From: Pseudomonadota bacterium
Lineage (GTDB): Bacteria; Pseudomonadota; Alphaproteobacteria; Parvibaculales; Parvibaculaceae
NCBI GenBank assembly: GCA_040390855.1
Contig: JAZJXO010000031.1
Coordinates: 39,088 to 71,087 of the forward strand
Reading direction: 5' to 3'
DNA length: 32,000 nt
Within the stretch, counting starts at the first letter, position 1; each line of letters starts with the position of its first letter. The notes beneath the pieces are model-generated. The model made no database searches. It saw nothing but the letters and a program-made list of their open reading frames with translations, and had not been told where the DNA came from. The position numbers and the translations under genes were made by a program. Positions 1,076 to 23,118 of the stretch are shown here, piece by piece.

Positions 1076-1281
1076 TAGGGTTCAAGGGGACTTGAGCACG
1101 ACGGAATATGAAGGAGCCGCGGGGCGGCGGTCGGTTTTTTAGCCGAACGCCGACGCGGGTTTGTGCGTTTGTGATTGGGTAATTGTTTTCGCCCAAAACA
1201 CATATCGGCCCAAACACATATCGGAATAACGGCCTGCACATCTTATGTGTGGGGACCAGTGACAAGACGGAGTGCCACTCT

Positions 1282-6824: not shown

Positions 6825-6901
6825 GGGCCTGTAGCTCAGTTGGTTAGAGCGGACCGCTCATAACGGTTTGGTCGCAGGTTCGAGTCCTGCCGGGCCCACC
6901 A
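6825..6901 (+). tRNA. tRNA with CAU anticodon, 77 nt, CCA encoded. Not an initiator. It resembles tRNA-Ile2 (lysidine type), but elongator tRNA-Met cannot be excluded.
   Basis: Hand-folded cloverleaf: acceptor GGGCCTG/CGGGCCC, D arm GCTC-AGTTGGTTA-GAGC, anticodon arm GACCG-CTCATAA-CGGTT, T arm GCAGG-TTCGAGT-CCTGC. The G1-C72 pair argues against an initiator. The variable and T region TTGGTCGCAGGTTCGAGTCC is close to E. coli ileX as I recall it. Confidence 0.9.
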
Positions 6902-7171: not shown

Positions 7172-8752
7172 CTAAGCTCTCGCCGGCAACCCAAGCTTCT
7201 CGCGCTGCATCACCCAGCTTGAGGGTAAGTCGGTGAGACGGGTGACGCCAATTCCGCGAGGCAGAGTACCTGCGACGGCTGCCTCGACAATATCGGGAGC
7301 GAGGAAGGCGAGAGAGAGCATCATGTGAACGGATCGTCTGCTGCGTCCCTCGCGTTTGGCGATGGCATCTGCATCAGGGATATCGCCGGACGCAAGCTCA
7401 TTGAGCCATGATCTTCCCTTTGAGATGGCTAGCACCAGTGTCGCTCTTGTTTCTGAACGGATCGGCCGTTGATCTACTCTGTCGGGGGCGATGATCTCTC
7501 GCCTTACGCGCGTTGGTTTGCGCGACCAGGGAAGCGTGATCATCTTGTGACCTGCGGATTCAGCGGCTTCATCAGTTAACCTGATCGTGACCTCGCCTTT
7601 GGCAATGATCACTTGATCGACGATTTGTTTGATGTGAAGCGGCGCGTCGCTCGGTTGGTCTGGAGAGATGACCTGTTCGAGTGACTGCAGAGCATTACTG
7701 ACAAGCGTTTCGATCTCCCGGGCCGACACCCGGGCGACAGAACCCGCGTTATCCTTGCGGCCTTCCGTGAGAGCTCTACTGACATAGTAGCGATACCTAA
7801 CGCCGCCTTTGTTGGAGTAGGACGGTGTCATAGTGTTGCCCCGATCATCGACGAGCCTCCCCAGCAGAAGTGCTTCGGACGCTGATCGCGTGGCGCGATG
7901 GACTTGCAAGTTTTTGGCAAGCATTGCTTGGACCTCCTCGAACAGGGTTGGATCGATGATCGGCTGATGCTCGCCGGGGTAGCTCATGCCTTTGTGGTTG
8001 ATCTCGCCAATATATGTGCGGTTCTTGAGGAGGTGAGCCAAGGGTCCTTTCGTAAAAGGAATGTCGCCGATTGTCTGACCTGTTGCGAGAGCCCGTCTTC
8101 GTGTTCTGACACCACGATCATGGAGTTCTGCGAGAAGCGGAAGCATGGAGCCGAGAGCGAGATAGCGTTCAAAGATCATGCGAACGGTCTCAGCCTCGGC
8201 TTCATCAATCAGCAGTCTTTTGTCTTCGACCCGGTATCCAAGTGGTACAACGCCTCCAACCCAGATGCCCTTCTTCTTGGAAGCCGAGATTTTGTCGCGG
8301 ATGCGCTCACCGGTAACTTCACGCTCGAACTGGGCGAAGGAGAGAAGGACGTTGAGCGTGAGCCGTCCCATGCTTGAGGTGGTATTGAAAGCTTGGGTGA
8401 CGGAGACAAACGAGACCCCTTGAGCATCGAAGAGCTCGACGAGCTTGGCAAAGTCAGCAAGCGAGCGAGTGAGACGGTCGACCTTGTAGACGACCACCAC
8501 ATCGACGAGGCCTGAACGGATATCATCCAGAAGCCGGAGTAGGGCAGGTCGCTCCATCGACCCACCCGAGAACCCACCATCGTCATAGGCGGCCTGTATG
8601 AGCCGCCAGCCTTCATGGGACTGGCTTTTTATGAAAGCTTCTGCTGCCTCCCTCTGGGCATCCAGTGAGTTGAAGTCCTGCTCAAGCCCGTGGTCAGTGG
8701 AGACGCGGGTGTAGATGGCACAGCGGCGCGTTTTGACAAGGGGTTGCCTCAT
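7172..8752 (-). CDS. Large serine recombinase (resolvase/invertase N-terminal domain plus recombinase domain), 526 aa
   Basis: CAIYTRVSTDHGLEQDFNSLDAQ carries the catalytic Ser region. VVVYKVDRLTRSLADF, FAQFEREVTGERIRDK and VPLGYR are also present. Confidence 0.92.
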   Translation of the reverse strand: MRQPLVKTRRCAIYTRVSTDHGLEQDFNSLDAQREAAEAFIKSQSHEGWRLIQAAYDDGGFSGGSMERPALLRLLDDIRSGLVDVVVVYKVDRLTRSLADFAKLVELFDAQGVSFVSVTQAFNTTSSMGRLTLNVLLSFAQFEREVTGERIRDKISASKKKGIWVGGVVPLGYRVEDKRLLIDEAEAETVRMIFERYLALGSMLPLLAELHDRGVRTRRRALATGQTIGDIPFTKGPLAHLLKNRTYIGEINHKGMSYPGEHQPIIDPTLFEEVQAMLAKNLQVHRATRSASEALLLGRLVDDRGNTMTPSYSNKGGVRYRYYVSRALTEGRKDNAGSVARVSAREIETLVSNALQSLEQVISPDQPSDAPLHIKQIVDQVIIAKGEVTIRLTDEAAESAGHKMITLPWSRKPTRVRREIIAPDRVDQRPIRSETRATLVLAISKGRSWLNELASGDIPDADAIAKREGRSRRSVHMMLSLAFLAPDIVEAAVAGTLPRGIGVTRLTDLPSSWVMQREKLGLPARA

Positions 8753-9243
8753 GACCTGGCTCTCTTCTGGTCCCGCAGGCCGAAGAAGCGGGGGCCGTTC
8801 CAGTTGGTACCGGTAATTGCCAATGCGACCTTTGACAAGCTTGGGTAGATATTACCGCTCCACGCAAAGCCTTCCTCAAGGACCATCACCTGATGGCGTG
8901 CTCCATCATGATCGCGGATGAGAAGCGTGCCGGGTACCAACGCCTCTGTACCGGGTAGAGGGATACTCTCATTGTTGCTGACTGATGTGTCCCCCTTAGA
9001 AAGATTGCCGCCTTTGGTTTGCCGAGTGAGATGATCAAGAAATCGTTCTGTCTCCTTGCTGATATCACCCAACGCCTGCGCCTGCAGGCGGTAGGCCAGC
9101 AGACGCAGGAGAAGGTGACGGGGTAGATGTGCTGGTGCTGTTCGGCGGAATGCTGCGCGCCAGCGCAGGCGAAGAGCGTCGAGATCGAGATGGCCCAGGC
9201 CATCGATCTCGATCTCGATGTCGTTAGCAGAAGTCGCCGGCAT
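8749..9243 (-). CDS. DUF2924-family protein (recombinase-associated)
   Basis: LRLRWRAAF...LLLRLLAYRLQAQALGD...WNGPRFFGL matches my recollection of DUF2924. Its stop overlaps the recombinase start (ATGA at 8749-8752). Confidence 0.75.
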   Translation of the reverse strand: MPATSANDIEIEIDGLGHLDLDALRLRWRAAFRRTAPAHLPRHLLLRLLAYRLQAQALGDISKETERFLDHLTRQTKGGNLSKGDTSVSNNESIPLPGTEALVPGTLLIRDHDGARHQVMVLEEGFAWSGNIYPSLSKVALAITGTNWNGPRFFGLRDQKRARS

Positions 9244-9247
9244 GGAC

Positions 9248-9610
9248 CTACGCTCCGATGATGCGATAGCGCCGTCCCGACTTGTCGGAGGTCTCCGATG
9301 TCAGTGTCAGACCAAGGCGCTTCTTCACCGTTCCGGACAGGAAGCCGCGCACGCTGTGCGTCTGCCAGCCAGTTGCCGCACTGAGATCATTGATGGTCAC
9401 CCCGTCTGGTCGTTTAAGCATCTCGATGATGATGTTGAGCTTGCTTGGTGGGCGTGGCGCTGTCTCTGAAGGCTTTGATGATCGGGTTGTCGCGCGGACG
9501 TTCGCTTTAGGCTTTGTCTCAACAGCGGTTGGCTTCAAGCGCCCACTATGTTGCGGTGCGGTCTTCTTAGTTGGCTTGCTGGTTGTTGTTTTGTTGCTCT
9601 GCGGCTTCAT
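9248..9610 (-). CDS. DUF3489-family protein with a Lys/Thr/Pro-rich N-terminal tail
   Basis: MLKRPDGVTINDLSAATGWQTHSVRGFLSGTVKKRLGL is the DUF3489 signature as I recall it. There is a strong SD (AAGGAGG) before the ATG at 9610. The gene ends 4 nt upstream of the DUF2924 gene. Confidence 0.75.
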   Translation of the reverse strand: MKPQSNKTTTSKPTKKTAPQHSGRLKPTAVETKPKANVRATTRSSKPSETAPRPPSKLNIIIEMLKRPDGVTINDLSAATGWQTHSVRGFLSGTVKKRLGLTLTSETSDKSGRRYRIIGA

Positions 9611-9934
9611 GATCTGCCTCCTTCGGGCTTCGTTGGCGACGGCTTATGCCGTCACTGTCAGAAGCCCCGGGTGGCTGTGGTGCCGCGGGGCGGGTCTAGG
9701 TCGGGTGCTCTTTGGCACCGGACACCCACAGCAACGCTCTGTTAGCAGAGGAAGTCGAGTGGGAATTTGGGGAAGGACCGCTTTGCGCTCCACGTTAGAC
9801 GTGCGATCGGGGCTCAACCGTTCGTGACGGCGGTGATTTGTTCAACATGATTGATGCCGACAAAGTAGTTTTACCAACCCGTCTTAGGTTCGACGGCCTG
9901 TATCGGAACCAGGCTTAAGTCGATAGAATGCCCC

Positions 9935-11251
9935 ATGGCTTGGGATCACGACGAAAATCATTGTCCGTTGGCAGCAGCCGATCGACGCCTTGGCGATGTT
10001 CATCGCTTCTGGCATCAGGCTGAACGTGCCTATTTCGACCCTGACGAATTCCGGGTGTCGATCCAGGCCGCGATCCAGACCGCCCGCCAGGTCACCTTCG
10101 TGCTGCAAAAACATAAGGCCGTCATCCCGGACTTCGATAGGTGGTATGGAGGCTGGCAAGAAAGGCTCGCTGCCATCCCGCTTATGAAGTGGATGGTTGA
10201 GGCCCGCAACCGCATAGAGAAGCAAGGCGACCTAGAGGCTCATAGCTTCATCAGTGCAGAGATTGTTGCCTCACACTTGGACGAGGGCCCCAAAATTCAG
10301 GTGTCGGCGAAACTGACGGATGCTCCACTGGAATTGGTAAAGAGCATTCCGGACTCAATGGTGGGCGGTCACATCAAGAAGGATGGCGTACTCAGAATTC
10401 GCCGTCGGTGGATCGAGAATACACTTCCCGATTTTGAACTTTTGGACGCGGTCGCCACCGCCTATGGGCTGCTTGTTCAGCTCGTTTACTCCGCTCACGT
10501 TCAGATTGGCTTGCTCGGTTCGGTAACAACCAATGTCGATACCGGCGAGCAATACCCTGAAGGCCTCAGGGACGGCCGCTTGCCCTGCATGATCGGCCAT
10601 GAAGACGCTCGGACTCTCGATGTCTGGCTGGCGAATGGCCAGCCGTTGGAATTTGAGGAAATTCGCAAAGAAGTAAATCTCGCTGAGGCTCCTGAACTCA
10701 AAGAACGGTACGGCATCGATCCGGCTAAAATGTATGCTGCAAGCGGCAAGGCTCAGGATCACGCTCGGTCGCTCTTCGCTGCCGCCCGCATAATGTTCGA
10801 GAAGGAGGGTCACCACATCACGCTCGTTATTCTGCTGCGTGACGGTCGGCCCGTAGGTATGCGCGAGTTGCGGCCGATGGAACACGGCCATAAGTTCATG
10901 ATGATGAGAGCGCTCGCACAGGAGGCGCAAAAGATCGGGGCCGATGCGACGGTTCTGATCGGTGAAAGCTGGAGCGCGCCCGCAAACCCGGACAAGCCCT
11001 ATATGCGCGCGGCCGACTCTCCTGACCGTAAGGAATTTCTAACGGCGACAGCCGTCTCCAGGGATGGCGAGCCCATCTTGTTGCGGGCTGAAATCCTGCG
11101 GGATGGCAAAACGGTGAAGCTGGATGAAACCCGCGAAGAATTCGGAGGGGCGCATTTCATTTTTGCGCCACTATACGTAGTCTGGAAGAAGCCTATTCCC
11201 GTTCAGTGGGGAGATTTGCCCACGGGCTTCGATGGGACTGAGCAAAAATAG
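9935..11251 (+). CDS. Hypothetical protein, 438 aa, no recognisable domain
   Basis: Uninterrupted 1.3-kb ORF in moderate-GC DNA. It is convergent with the defence ATPase gene, with an 18-bp gap. The RBS is weak or absent. I could identify no motif. Confidence 0.6.
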   Translation: MAWDHDENHCPLAAADRRLGDVHRFWHQAERAYFDPDEFRVSIQAAIQTARQVTFVLQKHKAVIPDFDRWYGGWQERLAAIPLMKWMVEARNRIEKQGDLEAHSFISAEIVASHLDEGPKIQVSAKLTDAPLELVKSIPDSMVGGHIKKDGVLRIRRRWIENTLPDFELLDAVATAYGLLVQLVYSAHVQIGLLGSVTTNVDTGEQYPEGLRDGRLPCMIGHEDARTLDVWLANGQPLEFEEIRKEVNLAEAPELKERYGIDPAKMYAASGKAQDHARSLFAAARIMFEKEGHHITLVILLRDGRPVGMRELRPMEHGHKFMMMRALAQEAQKIGADATVLIGESWSAPANPDKPYMRAADSPDRKEFLTATAVSRDGEPILLRAEILRDGKTVKLDETREEFGGAHFIFAPLYVVWKKPIPVQWGDLPTGFDGTEQK

Positions 11252-11269
11252 TCGGTGGTAATCATCAAG

Positions 11270-13123
11270 CTATCCCGCTGCCGATTCCGGTATGAACCCG
11301 ACCCTGTCTCCGGGGCCAGCTTCATCCCCGGCAAACCACTCGTAATTAACAGCGCTAGCTACATCGGACGGGGGCTCCTTGTTTTCGATGATCACGACCT
11401 GAACGTTGTTGGAGATGCTGGTGAGCGATTTCCAAAAAGCAGCCTCTACGCCCTGGCTCACAGCCGCGTCCGTGCCACGGACACCCGTTCCCTGCTTTTT
11501 GTAACTCGTCAGAGGAGAGTCGATCATGACAAACCCTGGATGGGGCAGACCTTCCCTCTGGCAGTACCGAACGAGGGCGATCACGAAAGCTGAATATAGT
11601 ACAGCACGCACGCCTTTGCCGTGAGATTGTCGGGTCTGGCCATCCACCTTGATGTCGTATGCCTTTTCATCGAACTCGACCCGGCCTTCGCCGTCCCATT
11701 TCCATTCCTTGAGAACGATTTCGATCTCCTTACAGAAGGCTGTCAGGGGCTTGCTCGGCAGTTCTTCCCATTGCCTTTTGCCAAGATTGCTGTCGGTAGA
11801 TGTCTTCTCAATCCGTGCTTTGAGCGAGCGGAGATTTTCCGCTTGTTCGCAATCATTGCGGGTGATCTCCAACTCCAGTCGTCGCGCGTTAAGACGCCGC
11901 AGTTGAGTAGTGCTGTTCGCAATTGCAGGCTGAACGATACTGGCCAAACGCTGCTCAGCGGAATGGACCGTCTCATGCGCTTTTGAACGCTCGACATCCC
12001 GCGCTTCGCGGCGTCGCTCCAAGCTGGCGATTGCATCATCAAGGTCGCGACGCTGTGCGAGGATTTTAGCTGCTTCTGCGCGGGCTGCCGTGTAGATGTC
12101 TGCGCTGGACTGAGCGGCCTTGTGAACGTGCTCTTCGTCCATGCTCTGACCGCAAAGCGGGCAGTCAACGTCCTGTAAACCGTCGAAGTAATGCGCTCCC
12201 TCCGATACAAAATCCAAACGGCTCAAATCCGAGGTGTAGTGCTCACTGAGAAGCTGATATCTTGTCAGCAACTGGTCGATCGCCAGCACTTGCGTCTCGG
12301 CTTTCACCCTAATATCGGCGGCGGCATCTCGGTCTTGCATTAGCGTCATGCGCTCGCTTTCGACCACCAATAGATCATCAGATACCCGAGCGATTGCCTC
12401 ATCAATCTTGTCGATAGAGTCTTCAGTCCCGTCTGTCGGGTTGCTCTGAAGACGTTGTTCCAGCGGCGCGAGAAGGTCATTGATTAGCGTCACCTGCGCG
12501 TTGAGCCGGGCCGCAGCAATCGCCTTCTTCTCCGTCGCAATAACACTCGAATCATCTTTGCCCGAAAGCATGTAGGCAAACATGCGCTTCCGCGCGGTGT
12601 CGTCGTAACCCTCCCCCCCAAGAACCGGCGACTGCTCCTCGATCACGGACACCTCATCGACAACGATGATAGGAAGAAATGTCCGGATGGTGAGGCGCTG
12701 GGTTTTTCCGTCGTTATTCTTACGCAATTGAGCTTCAGAAATGCCCGCAAACGGGAAGAGCACGGAGGTCACATCAGCGGCCTTGCTAAGCCCGCGGCGA
12801 CGATTCGCGACAACCTCGCCGTCCTCGTCGATCAAAGCTATAGGACAGTGGTGAGCTGAAAGATCTCCGCCTGAGAGGCTTCTAACAAGAGAAAGAAATT
12901 CGCCTGCCGAGTTTTGAAATTCGACCGAGAGCTTCTCATATGACTCGGCCAGAGGAATGCGTTTCTTTAACTCATCGGCCCCGAATATATAGTCCAGGCA
13001 ATGCAGCAAGTAGCTTTTCCCGGTGTCCGACTCGCCAGCAATTACATTGGGGCCATGCCCAAACTTCACGGAAGCGTCAGGGAGCCCTTTGCCGCTGAGC
13101 AGGATTTCTCTGATTTGGAGCAT
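11270..13123 (-). CDS. Rad50/SMC-like ABC ATPase of a Lamassu / ABC-3C system (LmuB-like), 617 aa
   Basis: N-terminal Walker A is VIAGESDTGKS. A long heptad-rich middle region follows, with CPLC at its midpoint. The C-terminal Walker B/D-loop is GFVMIDSP. The ATG at 13123 overlaps the upstream stop (TAATG). Confidence 0.8.
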   Translation of the reverse strand: MLQIREILLSGKGLPDASVKFGHGPNVIAGESDTGKSYLLHCLDYIFGADELKKRIPLAESYEKLSVEFQNSAGEFLSLVRSLSGGDLSAHHCPIALIDEDGEVVANRRRGLSKAADVTSVLFPFAGISEAQLRKNNDGKTQRLTIRTFLPIIVVDEVSVIEEQSPVLGGEGYDDTARKRMFAYMLSGKDDSSVIATEKKAIAAARLNAQVTLINDLLAPLEQRLQSNPTDGTEDSIDKIDEAIARVSDDLLVVESERMTLMQDRDAAADIRVKAETQVLAIDQLLTRYQLLSEHYTSDLSRLDFVSEGAHYFDGLQDVDCPLCGQSMDEEHVHKAAQSSADIYTAARAEAAKILAQRRDLDDAIASLERRREARDVERSKAHETVHSAEQRLASIVQPAIANSTTQLRRLNARRLELEITRNDCEQAENLRSLKARIEKTSTDSNLGKRQWEELPSKPLTAFCKEIEIVLKEWKWDGEGRVEFDEKAYDIKVDGQTRQSHGKGVRAVLYSAFVIALVRYCQREGLPHPGFVMIDSPLTSYKKQGTGVRGTDAAVSQGVEAAFWKSLTSISNNVQVVIIENKEPPSDVASAVNYEWFAGDEAGPGDRVGFIPESAAG

Positions 13124-13623
13124 TACAGTTCGAGCTCCTTGATAATCGTCAGCCGCTCGAACTCTGCGCCCCAACGACCGATATTCGCGGTCATGTAGCC
13201 TTCCAATTCTGCATCTGAATAATCAGCAAATCTCGTCACGACCCACGTTGCGCGGGTCCGCAAAGCGGACGCATAGAAGGAAATTAGCAGATTCAAGAAA
13301 GCACCCGTCAGTGCGGTCGCCCGATAGCAAATGCCAGTTGATTCAAATTTTTTCTCGAGCAGTTCTCTGGCGAACATCGCATCAAGCCCCGCCCGCACCA
13401 GATCGCGTTTTACGAGCAGTTCGCTACCGCGAAACGGTACGGCGGGATGAAGGCTGACCGGGCCATCCTCCACGTCGCCGGAATGAACAAGCAGATAGTC
13501 GTATGACACTAAGCGCTGGAGATCGAATGAGCGCCCGCGTGCCTGATCCAGCACAAACAACAGCCTCAACCCAGATTCGAACGGGGTGTTGAAAGGTCGT
13601 GTTTGAGAACCGAACGAACTCAT
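13123..13623 (-). CDS. Small middle component (LmuC-like / ABC-3C middle component), 166 aa
   Basis: The assignment rests on position and size between the effector and the ATPase, with coupling at both ends (ATGA at 13620-13623, TAATG at 13121-13125). The sequence FDLQRLVSYDYLLVHSGDV...SLHPAVPFRGSELLVKR resembles ABC-3C middle components as I recall them. Confidence 0.65.
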   Translation of the reverse strand: MSSFGSQTRPFNTPFESGLRLLFVLDQARGRSFDLQRLVSYDYLLVHSGDVEDGPVSLHPAVPFRGSELLVKRDLVRAGLDAMFARELLEKKFESTGICYRATALTGAFLNLLISFYASALRTRATWVVTRFADYSDAELEGYMTANIGRWGAEFERLTIIKELEL

Positions 13624-14747
13624 GTGTCGCACCAATGAACCCGGCCTTCGTTTGCCATCTGGTGGCACATGCCTTCGCGGTCGTTGGGTAGAACGTGGGG
13701 CTCCAGCACGTGCTTGCTCAACTGCAAAGCCTGAGAGGCTTTGACGGTGGAGATCAGTCGTTCGTAGCCGTCCGGCTCTCCGGTGTGCCAATGATACAAG
13801 CCGTCGACAAATTCACCCAGGAGAGTGTCGAAGAAGCCCTCGTCGGCCATTTGATCTCGTGCAAGTTCCTTCAGCCCTTCTGCGTGATAGAACGTCAGCC
13901 GGGAACGATCAAACAGACGTCTGTGCTTCTCGGAATGTACAAAGTCAGTCAAATTTGACACCGATTGTCCGAGATCGGCCGAGATGACGGCGAGGAGCTG
14001 GGTCACATATTCGTTCTCCCCCGGCGCAACTTCAGAAGGTGGCTCAGGGGGGGTGGGGCGGTCGATCAGGGGCAACCCGAAAATGGTAAGATGGTATCGC
14101 GTTTGTGCGTGTTCGTTGATCAGGTCAAGAGGCTGCTTAGCCCGAAAAACGGTGAATGGAACGGTCTCGACATGCTTCTTAAGTTTCGGTGTGAGATCGA
14201 CCGGATCCTTGCGAATTTTTGTCCTGATATATTCGCCCCAATTATCGATGACGAATTTCCGGAGTTTTTCCGGTTCGTCCAACAGGTCTTGGAAGGGGGA
14301 CGTCATGCCCTTGTGGGTGACAAAGTGGTATTCCTGCGGAAAGCTGTAGTCGCCGCGGTGGCTGTAAAAGAGAACTTTGCCGATTTCTGCGGCTGCAGTA
14401 CCCGCACCCAACGCAGAGCCATAGTGTTTACACTGGTAAAGGCTCCACCTGCGATTGGGGGCAGTGTTAGGGTCGAGCCAGGCGATGACATCACGCCCCT
14501 TATCTCCGGCCCCTCCACGCTGCTGAACCTCAACTACGCTGGGCACTTTAATCGCGAGATAGCCCGAGGCCCATTCGAGAGTGAAGCGTTCAAATTCGGC
14601 AGCGCTGAAATTTGCTAACCGATCAAGCGGAGCAACGGGAAGTCCCTGACCTAAACCCAAAAGGCGAGCGTTGGCACCCGGCCACGGCGTGGCCGCCTTT
14701 ATGTCTTCCGTTTGGCTCGCACTTTTGTTGTTCTGGATTTTCGTCAC
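13620..14747 (-). CDS. Effector with an N-terminal restriction-endonuclease (Mrr-like, PD-(D/E)xK) domain and a helical C-terminal domain (LmuA-like), 375 aa
   Basis: FERFTLEWASGYL...GGAGDKGRD-x18-YQCKHY is the Mrr_cat-type signature. GTG start at 14747 with a G-rich RBS. It is the first gene of the three-gene operon. Confidence 0.75.
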   Translation of the reverse strand: MTKIQNNKSASQTEDIKAATPWPGANARLLGLGQGLPVAPLDRLANFSAAEFERFTLEWASGYLAIKVPSVVEVQQRGGAGDKGRDVIAWLDPNTAPNRRWSLYQCKHYGSALGAGTAAAEIGKVLFYSHRGDYSFPQEYHFVTHKGMTSPFQDLLDEPEKLRKFVIDNWGEYIRTKIRKDPVDLTPKLKKHVETVPFTVFRAKQPLDLINEHAQTRYHLTIFGLPLIDRPTPPEPPSEVAPGENEYVTQLLAVISADLGQSVSNLTDFVHSEKHRRLFDRSRLTFYHAEGLKELARDQMADEGFFDTLLGEFVDGLYHWHTGEPDGYERLISTVKASQALQLSKHVLEPHVLPNDREGMCHQMANEGRVHWCDT

Positions 14748-15289
14748 GTAGCCCCCAAGAGGAATAGTGCCCCGACTTGGGCTTCTTGGCTAGATCTTTG
14801 AGGCGGTCAGGGACTGATCCGTTCGAAACTCGCTAAATTGCAAAAAAAGGATCGAGTCATCAACAAGTATGGCTCGCGCCTGCGATCTCGTTGTTTGGAT
14901 CGACGATGATTTGCAGGTCTTGCGACCATCGCATCTACGGCGGCCCCATAAAGGTCAGCGAAGGGACTGCACGTGCAGAAGGCGAATTGTCTTTGGTCTC
15001 GGCGACGGGCGCGGCGCCACAGGTGGCTGGGATGCGGTCCAGCAGCTATCGACCCAAATTCGAGCCGCTCAACTATCGAACAGCAATCTTAGCTTTTCAC
15101 ATTGGCTACCCTAAAAGCCGTCAGGCTGATTACAGCCAGCCTCAATCGATGCCTCACGTTTTCACGATCGCTCATGGCGCAAGGTGGCCGTTCAAGGTCC
15201 GATAATATGTATGATGGGAAGGTGGGACCCTTACGTCCTGTATCCAAGCGTATTTGATTTTCGCATTTTCTTTCTACGGTTCAATTATC

Positions 15290-16750
15290 CTACTTGTGCT
15301 TTGTCCAAAAGTGTCCTGGCACCTTGTGATGCAGGTAGCTGATCGGGAGCCGATTGTGTGCTGCGTACTTGATGATTGAGCGGAGGATCAGGACGAAGGC
15401 ATCCATGAGGTCGTCGGTCTTGCCGTGAGGGGCTGTGAGAAGTTCCTGGCGAAGGGTAGACATGTCTTTTGTCTCGAGTGACTTATGCGGGAACAGGACG
15501 CGGTTCTCGATGAATAGATGCTGGACTTCATAGAGGCGCTGTTCTTTAGAGCCTTGAGGCGGGACACTGTAGACGCCCTGATTGTCAAACTGAGGCCTCA
15601 GCATTTGATGCAGACCGATACCCGACGCGGCGTCTTCGATCAGGATATGGCTAGGACCAAAATCTTCATAAAACTTCAAAGCCATTTTCCGGAGTTCGGG
15701 AAGTTCGACATGCCCGCGCCATGCATCGAGCGCATAGAACCTGTTTTCCCGAATACCGACCGCAACGATGGCGGAGTAGGAGGCGTGCTCTGCAAGCGAT
15801 GACGCGCCATCAATGCCAAGGAATATATGTTCGTAATTGTGGTGGCGTCTGAACTCCGTATAGGAACCAATTTGTTCCGGCTTGAGGATAACGCCACCTT
15901 CAGGCATCGGGTCCTGCTGGTACTGGCTGGCAAAGATGCGGGGACTCTGTTTAGCGATCAGAACATCCTTGGGTCCACGCCAGGCGGGATGCAGGATTTC
16001 TCCCTTTTTGCGGTGATAGGTCTCGTTGGGGCCGGTCGCGATGACTTCGTCCTCGGTTGCAACGAGCGGAAGCTTCAGTTGGCGCCAAGGCTCGTTGGGC
16101 TTGGACAGGTAATGCCCGGTAAGATCGTTCAGGCTGATGCGCTGTTTCACACAAATAATTTTGCCTTCAATCGGCTTGGTCAGGCGCGCCGCCAGTGTTT
16201 CGTCGGCCCATTTGCTCGTTTTTTCGAGTTCCGCGTTGGTTAGGCTGGAGTCGATCTTGTGAGGGTCATCGAGAACGATGACATCGGCGGGATGGCCGGT
16301 GATCGGCCCATGGACGGACCGCGCCATGCGGCGACCGCCCTTGGAGGTGACAAGCTCGCTCAATGCGGTTTTGACGAGTGTGGTTCCGGGGAATATGCGC
16401 TGGTATTCGTTGGACTGCATAGCCATCAAGGTGAGATAGGCAAAGCGTTCGGCAATCGGCTCACCATAGCTGACGCAGAGAATGTTGAGGGTCGGATCGC
16501 GCCCGAGGAGCCAGGCCACATAAAGGACGCTGATAAGCTCGGACTTGCCGTGCTGCGGGGGCAGATTGACGATGAGGCGGCTGAATTCAAAGCCCAGTTC
16601 GCACTGTATCAACTCGTGAGCTATCGCCCGATGGTGCCAGTTCTCCTGAAACACGGCACCGGGATTCATGATGGAGAAGAACTTGATGACAAAGGCCATG
16701 AAGTTTTGGCGAATTATGGCGTCGGCCACATCCTTGTCGTGCTTATTCAT
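15290..16750 (-). CDS. Phage terminase large subunit (TerL), 486 aa
   Basis: Walker A-like LPPQHGKSE and Walker B VIVLDDPHK. The C-terminal nuclease-like region reads FLGIDGAS...ILIEDAASG. The ATG at 16750 overlaps the upstream gene by 8 nt. Confidence 0.85.
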   Translation of the reverse strand: MNKHDKDVADAIIRQNFMAFVIKFFSIMNPGAVFQENWHHRAIAHELIQCELGFEFSRLIVNLPPQHGKSELISVLYVAWLLGRDPTLNILCVSYGEPIAERFAYLTLMAMQSNEYQRIFPGTTLVKTALSELVTSKGGRRMARSVHGPITGHPADVIVLDDPHKIDSSLTNAELEKTSKWADETLAARLTKPIEGKIICVKQRISLNDLTGHYLSKPNEPWRQLKLPLVATEDEVIATGPNETYHRKKGEILHPAWRGPKDVLIAKQSPRIFASQYQQDPMPEGGVILKPEQIGSYTEFRRHHNYEHIFLGIDGASSLAEHASYSAIVAVGIRENRFYALDAWRGHVELPELRKMALKFYEDFGPSHILIEDAASGIGLHQMLRPQFDNQGVYSVPPQGSKEQRLYEVQHLFIENRVLFPHKSLETKDMSTLRQELLTAPHGKTDDLMDAFVLILRSIIKYAAHNRLPISYLHHKVPGHFWTKHK

Positions 16751-17162
16751 TTTTGTCTCCTTTGGTCTCTGCTGCATCCTTCAGAACGGCATGCTTGAAC
16801 CGTTCGAGGATCATCTGGTCAGTCTCTGAAAGTGTTTCTTCGGCGTTGTCTTCAATAACGTCGGCCATGATTTTCAGGATCATGCCGAAGACGGAATTCG
16901 CGGCCTTCGCATCACCCTTGATCCCTTTGGCGACGGATGACTTGATCAACGCGCGCTGCTTGGTGATTTTTCGCTGTTTGCCGTTCTCCTGGATTGAGAT
17001 CTGCTCGGAGAGCTCATCCATGAGATCGGTCTTGAAGTTCTTGTGGCCCTTTGGCTTCCCCTTGGGATTGCCGGACTGGCCTTTTTTGAACTGCGTGTGC
17101 GTGGGAGGCTTGCCATAGCCGACGTCGTAGTCGTCGGCCTTGTCCTCGTGATCATCAGACAT
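16743..17162 (-). CDS. DUF5681-type protein in the small-terminase position, 139 aa
   Basis: GYGKPPTHTQFKKGQSGNPKGKPKG motif. The ATG at 17162 overlaps the methyltransferase stop by 8 nt. The longer ORF-track start (17408) lies inside the upstream gene and is unlikely. Confidence 0.7.
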   Translation of the reverse strand: MSDDHEDKADDYDVGYGKPPTHTQFKKGQSGNPKGKPKGHKNFKTDLMDELSEQISIQENGKQRKITKQRALIKSSVAKGIKGDAKAANSVFGMILKIMADVIEDNAEETLSETDQMILERFKHAVLKDAAETKGDKNE

Positions 17163-18609
17163 TGTCAGCGCTCCCCTTGTCGGCCTCGGGCGCAGGGAGC
17201 AGCAGGGTGGTCTGTCCGGCCATGGTCTCGCGGAAGGTGAGGCCGGTCGCCTCGTTGACGGCCTCGAGGCCCGTGAACTCCTCCCAGCGGCGGATGATCG
17301 TGTCGACATACCATGGGTCGATTTCGATGCCGTAGCAGATGCGTCCGGTGTCCTCGGCGGCGATGAGCGTGGTACCGGAGCCGAGGAAGCCGTCGAAGAC
17401 GACGTCACCGCGGGCCGTGCAATCGAGGATCGCGTCGGCGCAGAGGCGGGCGGGCTTCACCGTCGGGTGAAGAGCAAGCTCCTTGCGGCGCTCGGGATTG
17501 ATCGAGTTCGCCCCTTCGTAGGTCCAGACATTGCTGCGGTTGCGGCCATAGCGACCGAGCTCGATATTGTTGGTGTGCGGGGCGTCGCCGAACTTGAAGA
17601 CCACCACGAACTCGGACTGGCTGCGGTAGAAGCTTCCCATGCCAGCGTTGGTCTTGACCCAGGTCACGACATTGATGAGCGTGAGGTCACATTCACGGCC
17701 CGCCTTGAGCAGGATCTCGACGTGACGCCAGTCGATGAAGATGTAGAGGAGGGTGCCGTTGGCGCAATGCTCGATCGAGAGCATGAGATAGCGCTTCAGG
17801 AAGGAGAGGAACTCTTCCTCGGTCATCTCGCCCGACGCCATGGCGAACTCCGCGTGCTTGAAGCGCCCGCGGCCGGAGAAGCTCTTGACGGCAAGGTTGT
17901 AGGGCACGTCGCTCAAGACACAGGCGATGAGAATACCCTTGAGCAGCCGGAGGATCGTCGCCGGGTCGAGGCTATCGCCGCAGAGGACCTTGTGGACGCC
18001 GAGCTTCCAGAGATCGCCAAGCTTTGAAATCGCCGGCTTGTCGCGCTGCGTGGGCGGCGTGTCATCAAGAGCGGTATCGTGAGGCTGGGCCAAAGACGTC
18101 TGGATCAGCATATCGACCTCGGCGATCTCGAAGCCGATGTCTTTATAGCTGATATCGAGGTCGATCAGGGACTGAAGCTCGCGGGCGAGTTCGTCATTGT
18201 CCCACTCGCCCAGCTCGCTGATCCGGTTGTCAAAGATCCGGAAGGCGCGGAGTTCAGTCTCATTGAGATGCGTCACACGAATACAGGGCAGGATCTCCAG
18301 ACCGAGTTCTTTGGCCACCAAATAGCGCGCATAGCCCGCGACAATGCGGTTATTGGCATCAATGATGAGCGGGACAATGAAGCCGACATTGCCGAAGCTC
18401 TTCTCGAGCAGGCGAAGCTGCTTCTTCGTATACCGCCGTGTCTGCCGGTTGGGCGGCAGGAGGTCGCCCAGCGGGATAAGGTCGATCTTTTCCGCCATCC
18501 ACGGCACAGGGAAGCGATCATTGCGCAGCCGCGAGCGTTCATTGGAACGGTCGTCCCAATTGTTCTGCTCAATATTACGGAGATCTCTGTCTTCTTCTCT
18601 CTCATCCAT
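17155..18609 (-). CDS. ParB-like nuclease domain fused to an N6-adenine/N4-cytosine DNA methyltransferase (beta class), 484 aa
   Basis: The N-terminal ParB/Srx-like region reads IVPLIIDANNRIVAGYARYLVAKELG. Motif IV is LSDVPYN. Motif I is VFDGFLGSGTT, preceded by HPTVKP. Confidence 0.9.
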   Translation of the reverse strand: MDEREEDRDLRNIEQNNWDDRSNERSRLRNDRFPVPWMAEKIDLIPLGDLLPPNRQTRRYTKKQLRLLEKSFGNVGFIVPLIIDANNRIVAGYARYLVAKELGLEILPCIRVTHLNETELRAFRIFDNRISELGEWDNDELARELQSLIDLDISYKDIGFEIAEVDMLIQTSLAQPHDTALDDTPPTQRDKPAISKLGDLWKLGVHKVLCGDSLDPATILRLLKGILIACVLSDVPYNLAVKSFSGRGRFKHAEFAMASGEMTEEEFLSFLKRYLMLSIEHCANGTLLYIFIDWRHVEILLKAGRECDLTLINVVTWVKTNAGMGSFYRSQSEFVVVFKFGDAPHTNNIELGRYGRNRSNVWTYEGANSINPERRKELALHPTVKPARLCADAILDCTARGDVVFDGFLGSGTTLIAAEDTGRICYGIEIDPWYVDTIIRRWEEFTGLEAVNEATGLTFRETMAGQTTLLLPAPEADKGSADNV

Positions 18610-21082: not shown

Positions 21083-21370
21083 TTAGCTAGATTGTTGGCG
21101 GCGTTTAAAAAAGCGGTACAGCGGCACAAAGACTATCGCAATATACCATCCGTATAGATATGAACCAATGAGGCCAAATATAAATCCAGATAATGTTAAC
21201 CACTCAAATCCCGGCAACAGAGGTGCCCAAGCTTCGTGCATATGAAATTTTGCGGGTGCAAGTAAGCCGAACGCAATGCAGAGCAAGTACGAAATCGCAA
21301 TGAACAAAGATAATGCTTGGCCTAGCGATGCAATTCGTATTGATCTAGAAGTCGTGCTCACTTCTGCCAT
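21083..21370 (-). CDS. Small two-TM membrane protein (DUF5676-like), 95 aa
   Basis: ATG at 21370 with SD GGAGGAG. Two hydrophobic helices and PLLPGFEWLTLSGFIFGLIGSYLYGWY. Assigning it to DUF5676 is from memory of metal-island neighbours. Confidence 0.55.
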   Translation of the reverse strand: MAEVSTTSRSIRIASLGQALSLFIAISYLLCIAFGLLAPAKFHMHEAWAPLLPGFEWLTLSGFIFGLIGSYLYGWYIAIVFVPLYRFFKRRQQSS

Positions 21371-21549
21371 AATGCTCTCCTCCGGAAATTTTTTGTTGAG
21401 ATGTTGTCGACAAATCAGTCTGCCGCTGAATGCGGCGACCATTTAGATGCGCCTACCCGTACGATTGATTGGCGCGGCGCTGTGTATTTTGTAGCGTTGC
21501 AAGCGTCGGCTCACAGTTTGGAAAAACCTTGAGAGCAAGCCATTCGCCG

Positions 21550-21882
21550 TCAGGGTTTAGTGGTGTCAGGTTGTGCGCCATCGCTGCCATGCATTGAACC
21601 TGGCCCGGCGCCTTGCATCATGCCCTGACCCGAACCCTGCATTATGCCTGACCCTGACCCCTGCATCATGCCGGAATTCATTCCGCCCATACCGCCTGTT
21701 TTCGACATGAAGGTCAGCCCAACCAGGGCAATCAATGCAAGTATTGCCAACCACGTACCAAGAACAATTCCAAAGCTCTTGATACGCCCATCGGCCTTTG
21801 ACGCGGCAAACAAAACGAAAAAACTCAAAGTCGCGAGTACTGTTCCGTGAAGTAGTGCTCCGAAAAAGGGAAACATGTGCAT
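21550..21882 (-). CDS. Membrane protein with a C-terminal Met/Gly-rich repeat tail (candidate Cu(I)-binding), 110 aa
   Basis: Two TM helices, then GGMGGMNSGMMQGSGSGIMQGSGQGMMQGAGPGSMHG. The underlying DNA shows imperfect ~24-nt tandem units. Confidence 0.6.
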   Translation of the reverse strand: MHMFPFFGALLHGTVLATLSFFVLFAASKADGRIKSFGIVLGTWLAILALIALVGLTFMSKTGGMGGMNSGMMQGSGSGIMQGSGQGMMQGAGPGSMHGSDGAQPDTTKP

Positions 21883-22525
21883 CTGACTATCCGATCTCTA
21901 AATTTTTGTTGCGCAAGGCCATCCCGACCGACCGCTGAACGGTCAAATCCAAATATTGCGCTGTGTGACGCTAGGCTCAAGACGCTCCAATTGAAATTAC
22001 GGAAAATACTTATGGATGCAGCACTCGCTTGGTATCTGAGTGCACCCCTTCAATGGACGTCTTCCTGCCATTAATCAGGCTAAGCTTATATGCATGAGTG
22101 CGCCTGCAAGCTCTAGGATCTCCTAGCGATGGCGCCAAATTTTGCAATCGCGGCGCCTTTCATTGGCTCTCGCCCCACATCATGCCATGCACGTGGTAGT
22201 GATGGACGTAGCGGTTCGGATTTTCCCAGACTTGTGCTGCTGAATAAGTGGCGATGTCGAGATTGCTGTGACGCGAACCCGGGATGCGTGCAATATTTCT
22301 AAGACACATCCGAAATCTCTTTTTGAGCGGTATAGGCTGGCGTAATTTGCACACTAATCAAGCAAACATTGCTTCGTCTCTGATCTGGATCATTATCGCG
22401 GTACCAAGAGTTATTACTAAGCGGTGGCCTAATTACGCAGGCGCAGATTTTACCGCGACTGTTAGATGCGGTCACGGCTGGAACGCAGGGCGGCGTCCAC
22501 TCGCCCAAGCCGGGGAGTGATCGCC

Positions 22526-23071: not shown

Positions 23072-23118
23072 ATGCCTCAGGACTGCAAGTCGGAAATTCC
23101 AATTAGAGATCGACCGTT

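What the first reader, a model, noticed from the sequence alone, without database searches (positions are those of the whole stretch)
11270..14747. Three-gene Lamassu / ABC-three-component type defence operon with a restriction-endonuclease-fold effector
The genes are co-oriented and translationally coupled (ATGA at 13620-13623, TAATG at 13121-13125). The first is a 375-aa protein with an Mrr-like PD-(D/E)xK signature (GDKGRD-x18-YQCK) and a helical C-terminal region. The second is a 166-aa small protein. The third is a 617-aa ATPase with Walker A GESDTGKS, a long coiled-coil middle and a C-terminal FVMIDSP. Order, sizes and motifs match type II Lamassu (LmuA-LmuC-LmuB), also described as ABC-3C systems. 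That is a known anti-phage/anti-plasmid family, so the family itself is not novel. The specific effector C-terminal domain and middle-component subtype cannot be assigned by eye and could be a new variant. The operon is carried as cargo of a tRNA-linked element beside terminase genes.
Basis: partly seen in the sequence, partly recalled or inferred. Interest (0 to 1): 0.7.

Follow-up and report, generated by a model that had tools for sequence, protein, structure and literature searches.

The report
Lamassu-Mrr anti-phage defence operon
This is an intact three-gene Lamassu (ABC-3C) defence operon of the already catalogued Mrr-nuclease subtype, sitting in the swappable cargo slot of a small integrated phage-like element; it is an ordinary member of a known family.

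Summary
Three co-oriented, overlapping minus-strand genes encode LmuA (14747-13620, 375 aa), LmuC (13623-13123, 166 aa) and LmuB (13123-11270, 617 aa). All three match PADLOC Lamassu profiles end to end (E 6e-101, 2e-53, 1e-170).

The LmuA N-terminal domain models as a PD-(D/E)xK nuclease with invariant E53, D82/D86 and Q105-x-K107. Its motifs align with E. coli Mrr. A homologous Vibrio phage operon, labelled Lamassu-Fam_Mrr by its depositors, hits the same three PADLOC models.

The gene order A-C-B recurs in 32 of 33 genome loci, with dN/dS of 0.05-0.08. LmuB is the short type, with Walker B hhhhD-S and one CxxC hook.

The operon and an Ea47-like gene fill a 5.4-kb slot (9789-15148). The slot lies between a serine-integrase module next to tRNA-Met and a TerL / DUF5681 / ParB-methylase module. 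Sister elements carry other conflict-type gene sets in the same slot.

The proteins are already in GenBank, LmuA and LmuC annotated as ABC-3C components. The family, subtype and general mechanism are published, so this is a new member of a known kind and of low interest.

The parts
13620..14747 (-). lmuA: 375-aa effector, GTG start. It has a clade-specific N-terminal extension (residues 1-37), a PD-(D/E)xK Mrr-like nuclease domain (about 41-220), a linker, and a helical CTD6 domain (244-372).
   Evidence: PADLOC LmuA PDLC03852, E 6.2e-101, residues 36-374 against profile positions 8-334 of 336. Pfam CTD6, 117.9 bits. AF2 model with pLDDT above 90 over 41-220 and an alpha-beta-beta-beta-alpha-beta core. 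Identical to GenBank MES1991729.1, 'ABC-three component system protein'.
14490..14507 (-). LmuA G81-D82-K83-G84-R85-D86: the first half of the nuclease active site (metal-binding Asp).
   Evidence: Invariant in 47 database homologues and 32 genome-locus homologues. Aligns with GDGGID of E. coli Mrr, with D86 opposite Mrr D203. Lies at strand E86-90 of the model.
14427..14435 (-). LmuA Q105-C106-K107: the QxK second half of the Mrr-type active site.
   Evidence: Invariant. Aligns with Q219-A-K221 of E. coli Mrr. Lies in strand E101-107.
13632..14018 (-). LmuA C-terminal domain CTD6 (residues 244-372), a helical bundle. By analogy it docks on the LmuB coiled-coil apex and LmuC, and later drives oligomerisation.
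   Evidence: Pfam PF20282, E 5.3e-34, profile positions 1-130 of 130. Helices H242-366 in the model. The role is inferred from the Vc-Cap4 Lamassu structures.
13123..13623 (-). lmuC: 166-aa middle component (MC2). Its ATG overlaps the lmuA stop codon (ATGA).
   Evidence: PADLOC LmuC PDLC03871, E 2.2e-53. Pfam MC2 PF20288, 168 bits, profile positions 1-145 of 145. GenBank MES1991728.1, 'ABC-three component system middle component 2'.
11270..13123 (-). lmuB: 617-aa short SMC/Rad50-like ATPase. Its ATG overlaps the lmuC stop codon (TAATG).
   Evidence: PADLOC LmuB PDLC03863, E 1.1e-170, residues 1-613 against profile positions 2-609 of 610. Weak matches to Rad50, SbcC and SMC-related families in 214-444. 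PDB 9hqu, a DUF3732 protein, at E 1e-4. Pro+Gly is 3-4% in 191-315 and 341-470 against 13-16% in the two head halves.
13013..13036 (-). LmuB Walker A, G30-E-S-D-T-G-K36-S37.
   Evidence: Conserved in 26 of 27 aligned homologues; the remaining one has a gap.
12122..12163 (-). LmuB hook region: C321-P-L-C324 followed by H332-x-H334.
   Evidence: C321, C324, H332 and H334 are invariant in 27 sequences. Weak Pfam Rad50_zn_hook match at 320-334.
11612..11626 (-). LmuB signature-like motif S500-H-G-K-G504.
   Evidence: S500, G502, K503 and G504 are invariant. The motif lies about 30 residues upstream of Walker B, where ABC ATPases carry their signature motif (inference).
11513..11533 (-). LmuB Walker B, F-V-M-I-D535-S536-P537.
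   Evidence: D535, S536 and P537 are invariant. This fits the hhhhD[Q/S/T/E] form reported for short Lamassu.
14748..15148 (-). Cargo-specific 5' region upstream of lmuA. It presumably holds the operon's own promoter and a GGGGG ribosome-binding site 6-10 nt before the GTG.
   Evidence: Backbone homology to the sister element starts only at 15149. Sequence read. No sigma-70 consensus promoter was found, so the promoter is not located.
9789..15148 (.). Variable cargo slot of the integrative element, holding the Ea47-like gene and the Lamassu operon.
   Evidence: Similarity to sister elements (L043, L044, L046) ends at 9788 on the left and resumes at 15149 on the right. Those sisters carry different gene sets in the slot.
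9935..11251 (+). 438-aa lambda Ea47-like protein. It is co-cargo, convergent with lmuB, with 18 bp between the two stop codons.
   Evidence: Precomputed Pfam PF26900, Phage_lambda_Ea47. phrog_19262, E 1e-29. No PADLOC hit. A C-terminal remnant lies after lmuB in Novosphingobium locus L003.
6825..6901 (+). tRNA-Met (CAT), next to the integrase end of the element.
   Evidence: ARAGORN.
7172..9610 (-). Integration module: large serine recombinase (7172-8752), DUF2924 (8749-9243) and DUF3489 (9248-9610).
   Evidence: Pfam Resolvase plus Recombinase, DUF2924 and DUF3489. phrog_95 integrase, E 3.5e-96.
15290..18609 (-). Backbone module: terminase large subunit (15290-16777), DUF5681 protein (16743-17162 as called in sister contigs) and ParB-N6/N4 DNA methyltransferase (17155-18609).
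   Evidence: phrog_38 TerL, E 4.7e-89, and phrog_498. Pfam DUF5681, N6_N4_Mtase and ParB_N. tblastn against phages. Gene calls in L034.

Best explanation
The locus is a complete, selectively maintained short type II Lamassu (ABC-3C) defence system of the Mrr subtype.

Shown here: the family and subtype of all three proteins, intact catalytic motifs, conserved synteny, purifying selection, and the location in a cargo slot.

Inferred by analogy with the solved Cap4-type Lamassu complexes: two LmuB subunits, one LmuC and one LmuA form a resting complex. The LmuB coiled-coil apex and LmuC hold the CTD6 domain of a single LmuA, which keeps the Mrr-like nuclease monomeric and inactive. The LmuB ATPase heads sense DNA ends or replication intermediates of an invading phage or plasmid. 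LmuA is then released, with slow ATP turnover by the Walker A K36 / Walker B D535-S536 site, and oligomerises through its C-terminal domains. This pairs the nuclease domains into an active site (E53, D82/D86, Q105-x-K107) that cuts DNA indiscriminately, giving abortive infection.

The operon rides as exchangeable cargo, together with an Ea47-like gene, in a roughly 14-16 kb serine-integrase element next to tRNA-Met. That element also encodes a large terminase.
For: - Full-length PADLOC hits to LmuA, LmuC and LmuB. Pfam CTD6 and MC2 far above their curated cut-offs.
- The same PADLOC triple and Pfam pair are hit by a Vibrio phage operon that its depositors labelled Lamassu-Fam LmuA_effector_Mrr, LmuC_acc_Mrr and LmuB_SMC_Mrr. 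It is 29%, 32% and 24% identical end to end.
- The A-C-B order is conserved in 32 of 33 loci across alpha-, beta- and gamma-proteobacteria. dN/dS is 0.05-0.08.
- Nuclease fold. The model is confident over 41-220. Foldseek's best PDB match is LmuA 9nxx (E 1.7e-4), followed by MspJI, AspBHI, Cap4, Avs3, HamA and FokI. Mrr_cat matches sub-threshold in 47 of 47 homologues. The motifs align with E. coli Mrr. The catalytic residues are invariant.
- LmuB. Its length of 617 aa, Walker B hhhhD-S and single CxxC match the published description of short Lamassu.
- Mechanism and defence phenotype. Lamassu-Mrr gave abortive-infection defence, and in the tested systems the ATPase, the effector and LmuC were all required.
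- Cargo status., plus an 89% identical operon inserted alone between guaA and a SnoaL gene in a Beijerinckiaceae MAG.
Against: - There are no experimental data for this operon or for any CTD6/MC2 complex that I could find. The solved structures are Cap4+CTD7/MC3 and Cap4+CTD12, so stoichiometry and tetramerisation are extrapolated.
- Pfam Mrr_cat is below its cut-off for the window protein (14.8 bits against 21, E 0.032). hhalign against E. coli Mrr is weak (E 0.0059, probability 6%).
- Foldseek TM-scores are low (0.2-0.28) because two flexibly linked domains were searched as one model.
- LmuB does not reach any Pfam cut-off and has only a weak sequence match to a solved LmuB-like chain.
- The experimentally validated E. 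coli SE15 Lamassu-Mrr could not be located for direct comparison.
- The promoter was not found.
- The host is an uncultured marine MAG.
Confidence: 0.9

Rival explanations
1. Same machine, different main target. The operon chiefly serves the mobile element that carries it, by excluding competing plasmids, phages or satellites, or by stabilising the element through addiction-like toxicity. On this reading it does not mainly act as host anti-phage immunity.
For: It sits in the cargo slot of an integrative element that keeps its own terminase, methylase and XRE-type regulator. The V. cholerae homologue DdmABC acts on plasmids as well as phages. Close relatives lie on plasmids: 143 PLSDB records, including 47 E. 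coli plasmids. One relative lies between the integrase and excisionase genes of a temperate Vibrio phage.
Against: This is not exclusive with anti-phage defence. An 89% identical operon sits in a chromosome with no mobile-element genes nearby. No antitoxin-like partner is present.
Confidence: 0.3
2. It is a housekeeping SbcCD/Rad50-Mre11-like DNA repair module and not an immune system.
For: LmuB shows weak similarity to Rad50, SbcC, RecN and SMC-related proteins. Lamassu is proposed to derive from SbcCD.
Against: There is no Mre11/SbcD phosphoesterase. The partner proteins are an Mrr-like nuclease with CTD6 and an MC2 protein, both specific to ABC-3C/Lamassu. Distribution is patchy and horizontal, on plasmids, phages and islands. 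The operon occupies a slot that holds other conflict systems in sister elements.
Confidence: 0.02
3. It is an inactive or decaying remnant carried passively in a degraded prophage.
For: The surrounding element has no identifiable capsid, portal or tail genes, so it could be a prophage remnant.
Against: All three reading frames are intact with coupled start and stop codons. All catalytic and nucleotide-binding residues are retained. dN/dS is 0.05-0.08. The identical LmuA protein was recorded on 14 contigs, and the four places shown come from four different sequencing samples.
Confidence: 0.03

Closest known systems
Lamassu-Mrr (Lamassu-Fam, Mrr effector subtype; Millman et al. 2022, bioRxiv 10.1101/2022.05.11.491447)
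   Same: Three genes, lmuA-lmuC-lmuB, with an Mrr-type restriction-endonuclease domain at the LmuA N-terminus. The window proteins hit the same PADLOC triple (PDLC03852, PDLC03871, PDLC03863) as a phage operon labelled with the DefenseFinder Lamassu-Fam_Mrr models. The published Lamassu-Mrr system gave abortive-infection defence, and the tested systems needed the ATPase, the effector and LmuC.
   Different: The validated system comes from E. coli SE15 and could not be located for direct comparison. The nearest E. coli relatives found, on IncF plasmids and in E2348/69, are only 34% identical in LmuA. The window clade adds a conserved extension of about 35 residues at the LmuA N-terminus.
Vibrio cholerae DdmABC / Lamassu Vc-Cap4, and Bacillus cellulasensis type I Lamassu (cryo-EM structures; bioRxiv 10.1101/2025.04.02.646746 and 10.1101/2025.06.23.660979; PDB 9nxx, 9ny1, 9uxh)
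   Same: Short LmuB ATPase with coiled-coil arms, a small LmuC, and an LmuA built as nuclease domain, linker and helical C-terminal domain. Foldseek ranks LmuA 9nxx first for the window model. The mechanism adopted here comes from these systems: monomer sequestration, DNA-end sensing, then an LmuA tetramer.
   Different: The effector fold subtype is Cap4 there and Mrr-like here. The C-terminal domains are CTD7 and CTD12 there and CTD6 here. The middle component is MC3 there and MC2 here. Vc LmuB has no zinc hook, whereas this LmuB has an invariant CxxC plus HxH. Sequence identity to the solved chains is about 10-12%.
ABC-three-component (ABC-3C) systems of Krishnan et al. 2020 (as cited)
   Same: The Pfam families built from that classification match directly: CTD6 (PF20282) and MC2 (PF20288). 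NCBI already names the window's LmuA and LmuC as ABC-3C components.
   Different: None of substance. ABC-3C is another name for type II Lamassu.
Lamassu-Mrr operon of Vibrio phage 10N.286.54.F2_PE001 (PQ189354.1)
   Same: Same three genes, order and Pfam/PADLOC families. Also carried by a mobile element right next to its integrase.
   Different: Identity is 24-32%. The carrier is a complete 42-kb temperate phage with a tyrosine-type integrase and an excisionase. The element here is a serine-recombinase element with no structural genes.
SbcCD / Rad50-Mre11
   Same: LmuB shares the split ABC-type head, antiparallel coiled coil and CxxC hook. DNA-end sensing is coupled to a nuclease.
   Different: LmuB is much shorter (617 aa). 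Walker B is D-S in place of the D-E of canonical ABC-type ATPases (my own knowledge; one search reports hhhhDD for long Lamassu). There is no Mre11/SbcD phosphoesterase. The nuclease is a separate PD-(D/E)xK effector held by its C-terminal domain.

Membership tests
Lamassu (Lamassu-Fam), type II / ABC-3C | An LmuB SMC/Rad50-like ATPase matching LmuB profiles over its full length | tested here: met
   PDLC03863, E 1.1e-170, residues 1-613 against profile positions 2-609 of 610.
Lamassu (Lamassu-Fam), type II / ABC-3C | An LmuA with an N-terminal effector domain and a Lamassu/ABC-3C C-terminal domain | tested here: met
   PDLC03852, E 6.2e-101. Pfam CTD6, 117.9 bits against a cut-off of 26.4.
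Lamassu (Lamassu-Fam), type II / ABC-3C | A small middle component, LmuC, encoded between lmuA and lmuB | tested here: met
   PDLC03871, E 2.2e-53. Pfam MC2, 168 bits against a cut-off of 26.9. Gene order with overlapping stop and start codons.
Lamassu (Lamassu-Fam), type II / ABC-3C | The three genes co-occur as one operon in unrelated genomes | tested here: met
   32 of 33 loci have A-C-B in the same order and strand. This also holds on E. coli plasmids and in a Vibrio phage.
Lamassu (Lamassu-Fam), type II / ABC-3C | Protection against phage or plasmid that depends on the ATPase, the effector and LmuC | not testable with these tools
   Shown for other Lamassu systems, including Lamassu-Mrr. 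Not shown for this operon.
Short Lamassu (Haudiquet et al. 2025) | LmuB of about 600 aa, Walker A Gx4GK[S/T], Walker B hhhhD[Q/S/T/E], and zero to two CxxC motifs | tested here: met
   617 aa. G30-x4-G35-K36-S37. FVMID535-S536. One CxxC at 321-324. All conserved. Criteria taken.
Short Lamassu (Haudiquet et al. 2025) | A short LmuA C-terminal domain forming a bundle of 5-6 helices | tested here: met
   The model shows helices H242-259, 266-269, 273-300, 304-319, 327-341 and 354-366, although pLDDT is only 50-88 in this domain. Criterion taken.
Lamassu-Mrr subtype (DefenseFinder LmuA_effector_Mrr, LmuC_acc_Mrr, LmuB_SMC_Mrr) | Match to the subtype's own HMMs | tested here: inconclusive
   The DefenseFinder models themselves were not available. 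Indirect test: an operon that its depositors labelled with these models hits the same best PADLOC models and Pfam families as the window proteins, and aligns with them end to end.
Mrr-like restriction endonuclease domain (Pfam Mrr_cat, PF04471) | Score above the Pfam gathering threshold | tested here: not met
   14.8 bits against a cut-off of 21, E 0.032. The same region matches sub-threshold in 47 of 47 homologues, with a best E of 1.2e-4.
Mrr-like restriction endonuclease domain (Pfam Mrr_cat, PF04471) | PD-(D/E)xK core fold with the D...QxK active-site variant | tested here: met
   An alpha-beta-beta-beta-alpha-beta core at pLDDT above 90. Invariant E53, D82/D86 and Q105-x-K107. The motifs align with E. 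coli Mrr, D203 and Q219-A-K221. Structural neighbours are MspJI, AspBHI, Cap4, Avs3 and FokI, at E 0.02-0.2.
   No hit for the window protein at E <= 0.01. The E. coli homologue has a weak hit at E 0.025. The solved DUF3732 chain 9hqu matches at E 1e-4. This does not affect Lamassu membership, which rests on the LmuB profiles.

The most novel reading that the evidence does not exclude
The most novel reading left open concerns the carrier and not the operon. The roughly 14-16 kb element next to tRNA-Met has a serine integrase, DUF2924, DUF3489, an XRE-type switch, a ParB-methylase, a DUF5681 protein and an intact large terminase, but no capsid, portal or tail genes. It could be an undescribed kind of phage satellite in marine Parvibaculaceae-like alphaproteobacteria. 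Such a satellite would package itself with its own terminase into a helper phage's capsids. It would use one fixed slot, between DUF3489 and TerL, as an exchangeable immunity cassette site: Lamassu-Mrr here, a BrxR/SbcCD-like/helicase-nuclease set in one sister, and a DO-GTPase/GAP1 conflict system in another.

Within the operon, two minor features are unexplained. The LmuA N-terminal peptide (W22-P23...G35-L36-P37) is invariant. The LmuB hook has CxxC followed by HxH. Together these might mark a regulatory or dimerisation mode that differs from the solved Cap4 systems.
Probability: 0.2. Interest if true: 0.5.

Novelty: new member of a known kind. Interest (0 to 1): 0.2.

Why it matters
The Lamassu operon itself adds little. 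It is one more uncharacterised Lamassu-Mrr in an uncultured marine alphaproteobacterium. PADLOC profiles recognise all three proteins, Pfam recognises LmuA and LmuC, and NCBI already annotates LmuA and LmuC as ABC-3C components.

It has modest value in three ways:
1. It is a clean example of the Mrr/CTD6/MC2 architecture, for which I found no solved complex. It could serve as a comparison point to test whether the sequestration-and-tetramerisation mechanism of Cap4 Lamassu carries over to other effectors and C-terminal domains.
2. It documents a defined cargo slot in a conserved terminase-bearing integrative element, where at least three unrelated gene sets of conflict or defence type replace one another. 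That slot is a practical place to look for new defence genes, including the neighbouring Ea47-like protein.
3. The invariant CxxC...HxH hook and the N-terminal LmuA peptide give simple mutational targets.

Tried and rejected
- **Sequence searches of the PDB.** LmuA and LmuC, as single sequences and as a 47-sequence profile, gave only chance hits (ELMO, RuBisCO small subunit, beta-glycosidase). The ELMO hit to the N-terminal peptide WPGANA-LL is treated as coincidence.
- **NCBIfam.** It gave nothing for LmuA or LmuC, and only weak Rad50/RecN/SMC-related hits for LmuB.
- **Locating the validated E. coli SE15 Lamassu-Mrr.** Plasmid pECSF1 was read in full and has no ABC-3C operon. SE15 is not among the 68 E. 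coli records that carry the IncF/E2348-69 CTD6/MC2 operon at 99% identity or more. The nearest validated relative therefore remains unidentified.
- **att repeats.** No convincing direct repeat links the tRNA-Met 3' end to the far side of the element. This is expected for a serine recombinase, so the right boundary is only approximate (about 21.3-23.1 kb). One variant contig diverges at 21315.
- **Promoter and terminator scan.** No sigma-70 promoter was found upstream of lmuA, and terminator-like sites were no more frequent than in shuffles.
- **Scan of viral contigs with TerL.** No close relative was found.
- **MzaA hit.** The PADLOC MzaA hit of the 692-aa ORF at 1183-3261 is RpoD matching through its sigma-70 domains, not a defence gene.
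- **Functional link between the Ea47-like gene and Lamassu.** Rejected as a general rule. Only one of the 33 genome loci shows even a remnant of the gene.

Full report
**1. What is in the sequence**

The minus strand of 11270-14747 holds three consecutive reading frames.
- The two junctions are as described. ATGA at 13623-13620 joins gene 1 to gene 2, and TAATG at 13125-13121 joins gene 2 to gene 3.
- The purely mechanical ORF list offers longer upstream starts for genes 2 and 3 (222 and 634 aa). The family profiles argue against these. They begin to match at residues 8-10 of the 166-aa form and at residue 1 of the 617-aa form.
- Homologous operons keep the same boundaries. GenBank holds exactly these three proteins from a marine Pseudomonadota MAG.
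The only slip is the spacer, which is 17 residues and not 18.
- Against an 80-86% identical operon in a Rhodopseudomonas MAG, dN/dS is 0.048, 0.049 and 0.078 for the three genes. These are real genes under purifying selection.

**2. Family assignment**

- PADLOC profiles match all three proteins essentially end to end: LmuA PDLC03852 (E 6e-101), LmuC PDLC03871 (E 2e-53) and LmuB PDLC03863 (E 1e-170).
The LmuA C-terminus (244-372) is CTD6 of the ABC-3C systems (118 bits). The middle protein is ABC-3C Middle Component 2 (168 bits). Both cover the whole profile.
- NCBI's pipeline already names the first two proteins 'ABC-three component system protein' and 'ABC-three component system middle component 2'.
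- ABC-3C and type II Lamassu are two names for the same thing.

**3. The effector domain**

- An AlphaFold2 model built on 47 homologues is confident over residues 41-220, with block pLDDT of 84-98. It shows the alpha-beta-beta-beta-alpha-beta core of PD-(D/E)xK nucleases, followed by a linker and a helical C-terminal domain.
- E53, G81-D82-K83-G84-R85-D86 and Q105-C106-K107 are invariant in 47 database homologues and in 32 genome-locus homologues.
- Foldseek against the PDB ranks the V. cholerae LmuA tetramer first (9nxx, E 1.7e-4). Next come MspJI, AspBHI, Cap4, Avs3, Hachiman HamA and FokI. All are PD-(D/E)xK nucleases and most come from defence systems. TM-scores are low because two flexibly linked domains were searched as one model.
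- Pfam Mrr_cat does not reach its cut-off for the window protein (14.8 bits against 21). It matches the same stretch, sub-threshold, in 47 of 47 homologues.
- A profile-to-sequence comparison with E. coli Mrr lines up the catalytic motifs. GGTGDGGIDGV aligns with GGAGDKGRDVI, so Mrr D203 sits opposite D86. Q219-A-K221 sits opposite Q105-C-K107. The statistics are weak (E 0.0059).
- My conclusion: the restriction-endonuclease fold is shown, and the Mrr-type D...QxK variant is well supported. Formal Pfam membership is not met.

**4. Subtype**

- A tblastn search of phage genomes found a homologous operon in Vibrio phage 10N.286.54.F2_PE001. Its depositors labelled the three genes with the DefenseFinder models Lamassu-Fam LmuA_effector_Mrr, LmuC_acc_Mrr and LmuB_SMC_Mrr.
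- Those proteins align with the window proteins over their full length, at 29%, 32% and 24% identity.
- They have the same best PADLOC models and the same Pfam CTD6 and MC2.
- An operon on E. coli IncF plasmids and in strain E2348/69, found in 66 of 5,426 complete E. coli genomes, behaves the same way.
- The window operon therefore belongs to the Lamassu-Mrr lineage.
- Millman et al. list the Mrr family among the LmuA effector domains. They report abortive-infection defence by Lamassu-Mrr, and in the systems they tested the ATPase, the effector and LmuC were all required.

**5. LmuB**

- The protein is 617 aa.
- Walker A (G30...G35-K36-S37) is conserved. Walker B is hhhhD535-S536-P537, with D, S and P invariant.
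- A signature-like S500-x-G-K-G504 is invariant.
- A single C321-x-x-C324 is invariant, followed by invariant H332-x-H334.
- Composition fits two helical arms (191-315 and 341-470, 3-4% Pro+Gly) between two globular head halves (13-16% Pro+Gly).
- Weak hits to Rad50, SbcC and SMC-related families fall in the arm and hook region.
- These features match the published definition of short Lamassu: about 600 aa, Walker B hhhhD[Q/S/T/E], and zero to two CxxC motifs.

**6. Conservation of the operon**

- Of 33 genome loci that encode an LmuA homologue, 32 have LmuC and LmuB immediately downstream in the same order. The loci span alpha-, beta- and gamma-proteobacteria. The exception, L029, has a truncated LmuA match.
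- The operon moves as a unit. An 89% identical copy sits alone between guaA and a SnoaL gene in a Beijerinckiaceae MAG.
- Other copies are on plasmids (143 PLSDB records) and in a temperate phage.

**7. Genomic context**

- tRNA-Met lies at 6825-6901.
- It is followed by a large serine recombinase, DUF2924 and DUF3489.
- Next come a 438-aa lambda Ea47-like protein and the Lamassu operon.
- After these lie a large terminase, a DUF5681 protein, a ParB-N6/N4 methyltransferase, an XRE-type HTH gene and small ORFs.
- Ordinary chromosomal genes resume by about 23 kb: an amino-acid permease, a copper P-type ATPase and an MFS transporter.
- No capsid, portal or tail gene was recognised.
- The same element, with the identical LmuA, occurs on contigs from several metagenome samples, including a TARA scaffold.
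- Two sister elements share the backbone and the same chromosomal neighbours. Their similarity to the window stops at 9788 and resumes at 15149.
- In that slot, Parvibaculum sp. GCA_030649335.1 carries BrxR, an SbcD/SbcC-like pair, a PDDEXK_1 protein, a UvrD helicase and an HD protein.
- A second TARA scaffold carries a GAP1-N1 / DO-GTPase1 / DO-GTPase2 / GASH / Metallophos-GAAD set plus an IS.

**8. Mechanism**

Identity, intact motifs, synteny and selection are shown here. The rest is inferred from the solved Cap4 Lamassu complexes.
- At rest, an LmuA1-LmuB2-LmuC1 complex holds a single LmuA by its C-terminal domain, at the kinked coiled-coil apex of LmuB next to LmuC.
- The LmuB heads recognise DNA ends or replication intermediates.
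- ATP turnover is slow because of the divergent Walker B.
- LmuA is released and tetramerises through its C-terminal domains, which pairs the nuclease domains into an active site.
- DNA is then degraded non-specifically, and the outcome is abortive infection.

Li et al. argue that the ubiquitous LmuA C-terminal domain makes release and oligomerisation a likely shared activation route across effectors. The transfer to Mrr+CTD6/MC2 is plausible but untested. The solved systems are Cap4+CTD7/MC3 and Cap4+CTD12. The V. cholerae LmuB lacks the zinc hook that is invariant here.

**9. Comparison, novelty and score**

- The family dates from 2018 onward, and the ABC-3C classification with its CTD and MC families from 2020.
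- The Mrr subtype and its phenotype were published in 2022, and the mechanism for sister subtypes in 2025.
- LmuA and LmuC are already annotated as ABC-3C components in GenBank.
- This is therefore a new member of a known kind.
- Three small unexplained details remain: the invariant but poorly modelled LmuA N-terminal peptide (residues 19-37), which is absent from the E. coli and Vibrio phage homologues; the CxxC...HxH hook; and the nature of the capsid-less, terminase-bearing carrier.
- Interest is 0.2.

Noticed in passing
window 9789-15148; L043 3177-8830, L044 13857-21058, L046 303-8789: There is a fixed cargo slot between DUF3489 and TerL in a conserved integrative element. It holds Ea47-like plus Lamassu-Mrr in the window. 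In Parvibaculum sp. it holds BrxR, an SbcD/SbcC-like pair, PDDEXK_1, UvrD and HD. On a TARA scaffold it holds a GAP1-N1 / DO-GTPase / GASH / GAAD system plus an IS. Backbone similarity breaks at exactly 9788 and 15149.
   Followed up: partly
window about 6900 to about 21300-23100: The carrier element has a serine integrase, an XRE-type HTH gene, a ParB-methyltransferase, a DUF5681 protein and an intact large terminase. It has no recognisable capsid, portal, tail or replication genes. Even so, its backbone is 82-95% conserved with intact ORFs in at least three lineages at the same chromosomal site. It could be a satellite-like element or a domesticated remnant. No att repeat was found.
   Followed up: partly
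window 9935-11251 (+): A 438-aa protein of the lambda Ea47 family (PF26900 in precomputed Pfam; phrog_19262) with no known function. It is convergent with lmuB, with 18 bp between the stop codons. A C-terminal remnant of a homologue lies in the same position after lmuB in Novosphingobium aquimarinum (L003 6041-6181).
   Followed up: partly
window 14637-14693 (LmuA residues 19-37): The peptide P-W-P-G-A-N-A-R-L-L-G-L-G-Q-G-L-P-V is almost invariant in 47 homologues (58-91% identical overall). It is modelled with low confidence and lies outside the PADLOC LmuA profile. It is absent from the E. coli and Vibrio phage Lamassu-Mrr proteins. Its function is unknown.
   Followed up: partly
window 12122-12163 (LmuB residues 321-334): The hook region has invariant C321, C324, H332 and H334. 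This could form a Cys2-His2 zinc site within one chain, unlike the inter-chain four-cysteine Rad50-type hook.
   Followed up: no
L035 314-3407 (corresponds to the region right of window 21315): One metagenomic variant of the same element diverges from the window at 21315. There it carries a GmrSD type IV restriction enzyme and an IS1-like transposase. This suggests a second variable or defence site at the other end of the element.
   Followed up: no
window 21587-21672: Three imperfect head-to-tail copies (24-nt spacing, 66-76% identity) lie inside a 110-aa minus-strand ORF (21550-21882) of unknown function.
   Followed up: no
window 1183-3261 (+): This is the housekeeping sigma factor RpoD, with all sigma-70 regions present. 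It scores E 3e-75 against the PADLOC MzaA profile purely through its sigma-70 domains, which could produce a false-positive defence call.
   Followed up: yes
L027 2685-5737 (Shimia sediminis): A distant homologue of the same TerL / DUF5681 / ParB-methyltransferase trio (29-47% identity) lies about 2 kb upstream of, and divergent from, another Lamassu-Mrr operon. The association of this backbone with Lamassu may therefore recur.
   Followed up: no
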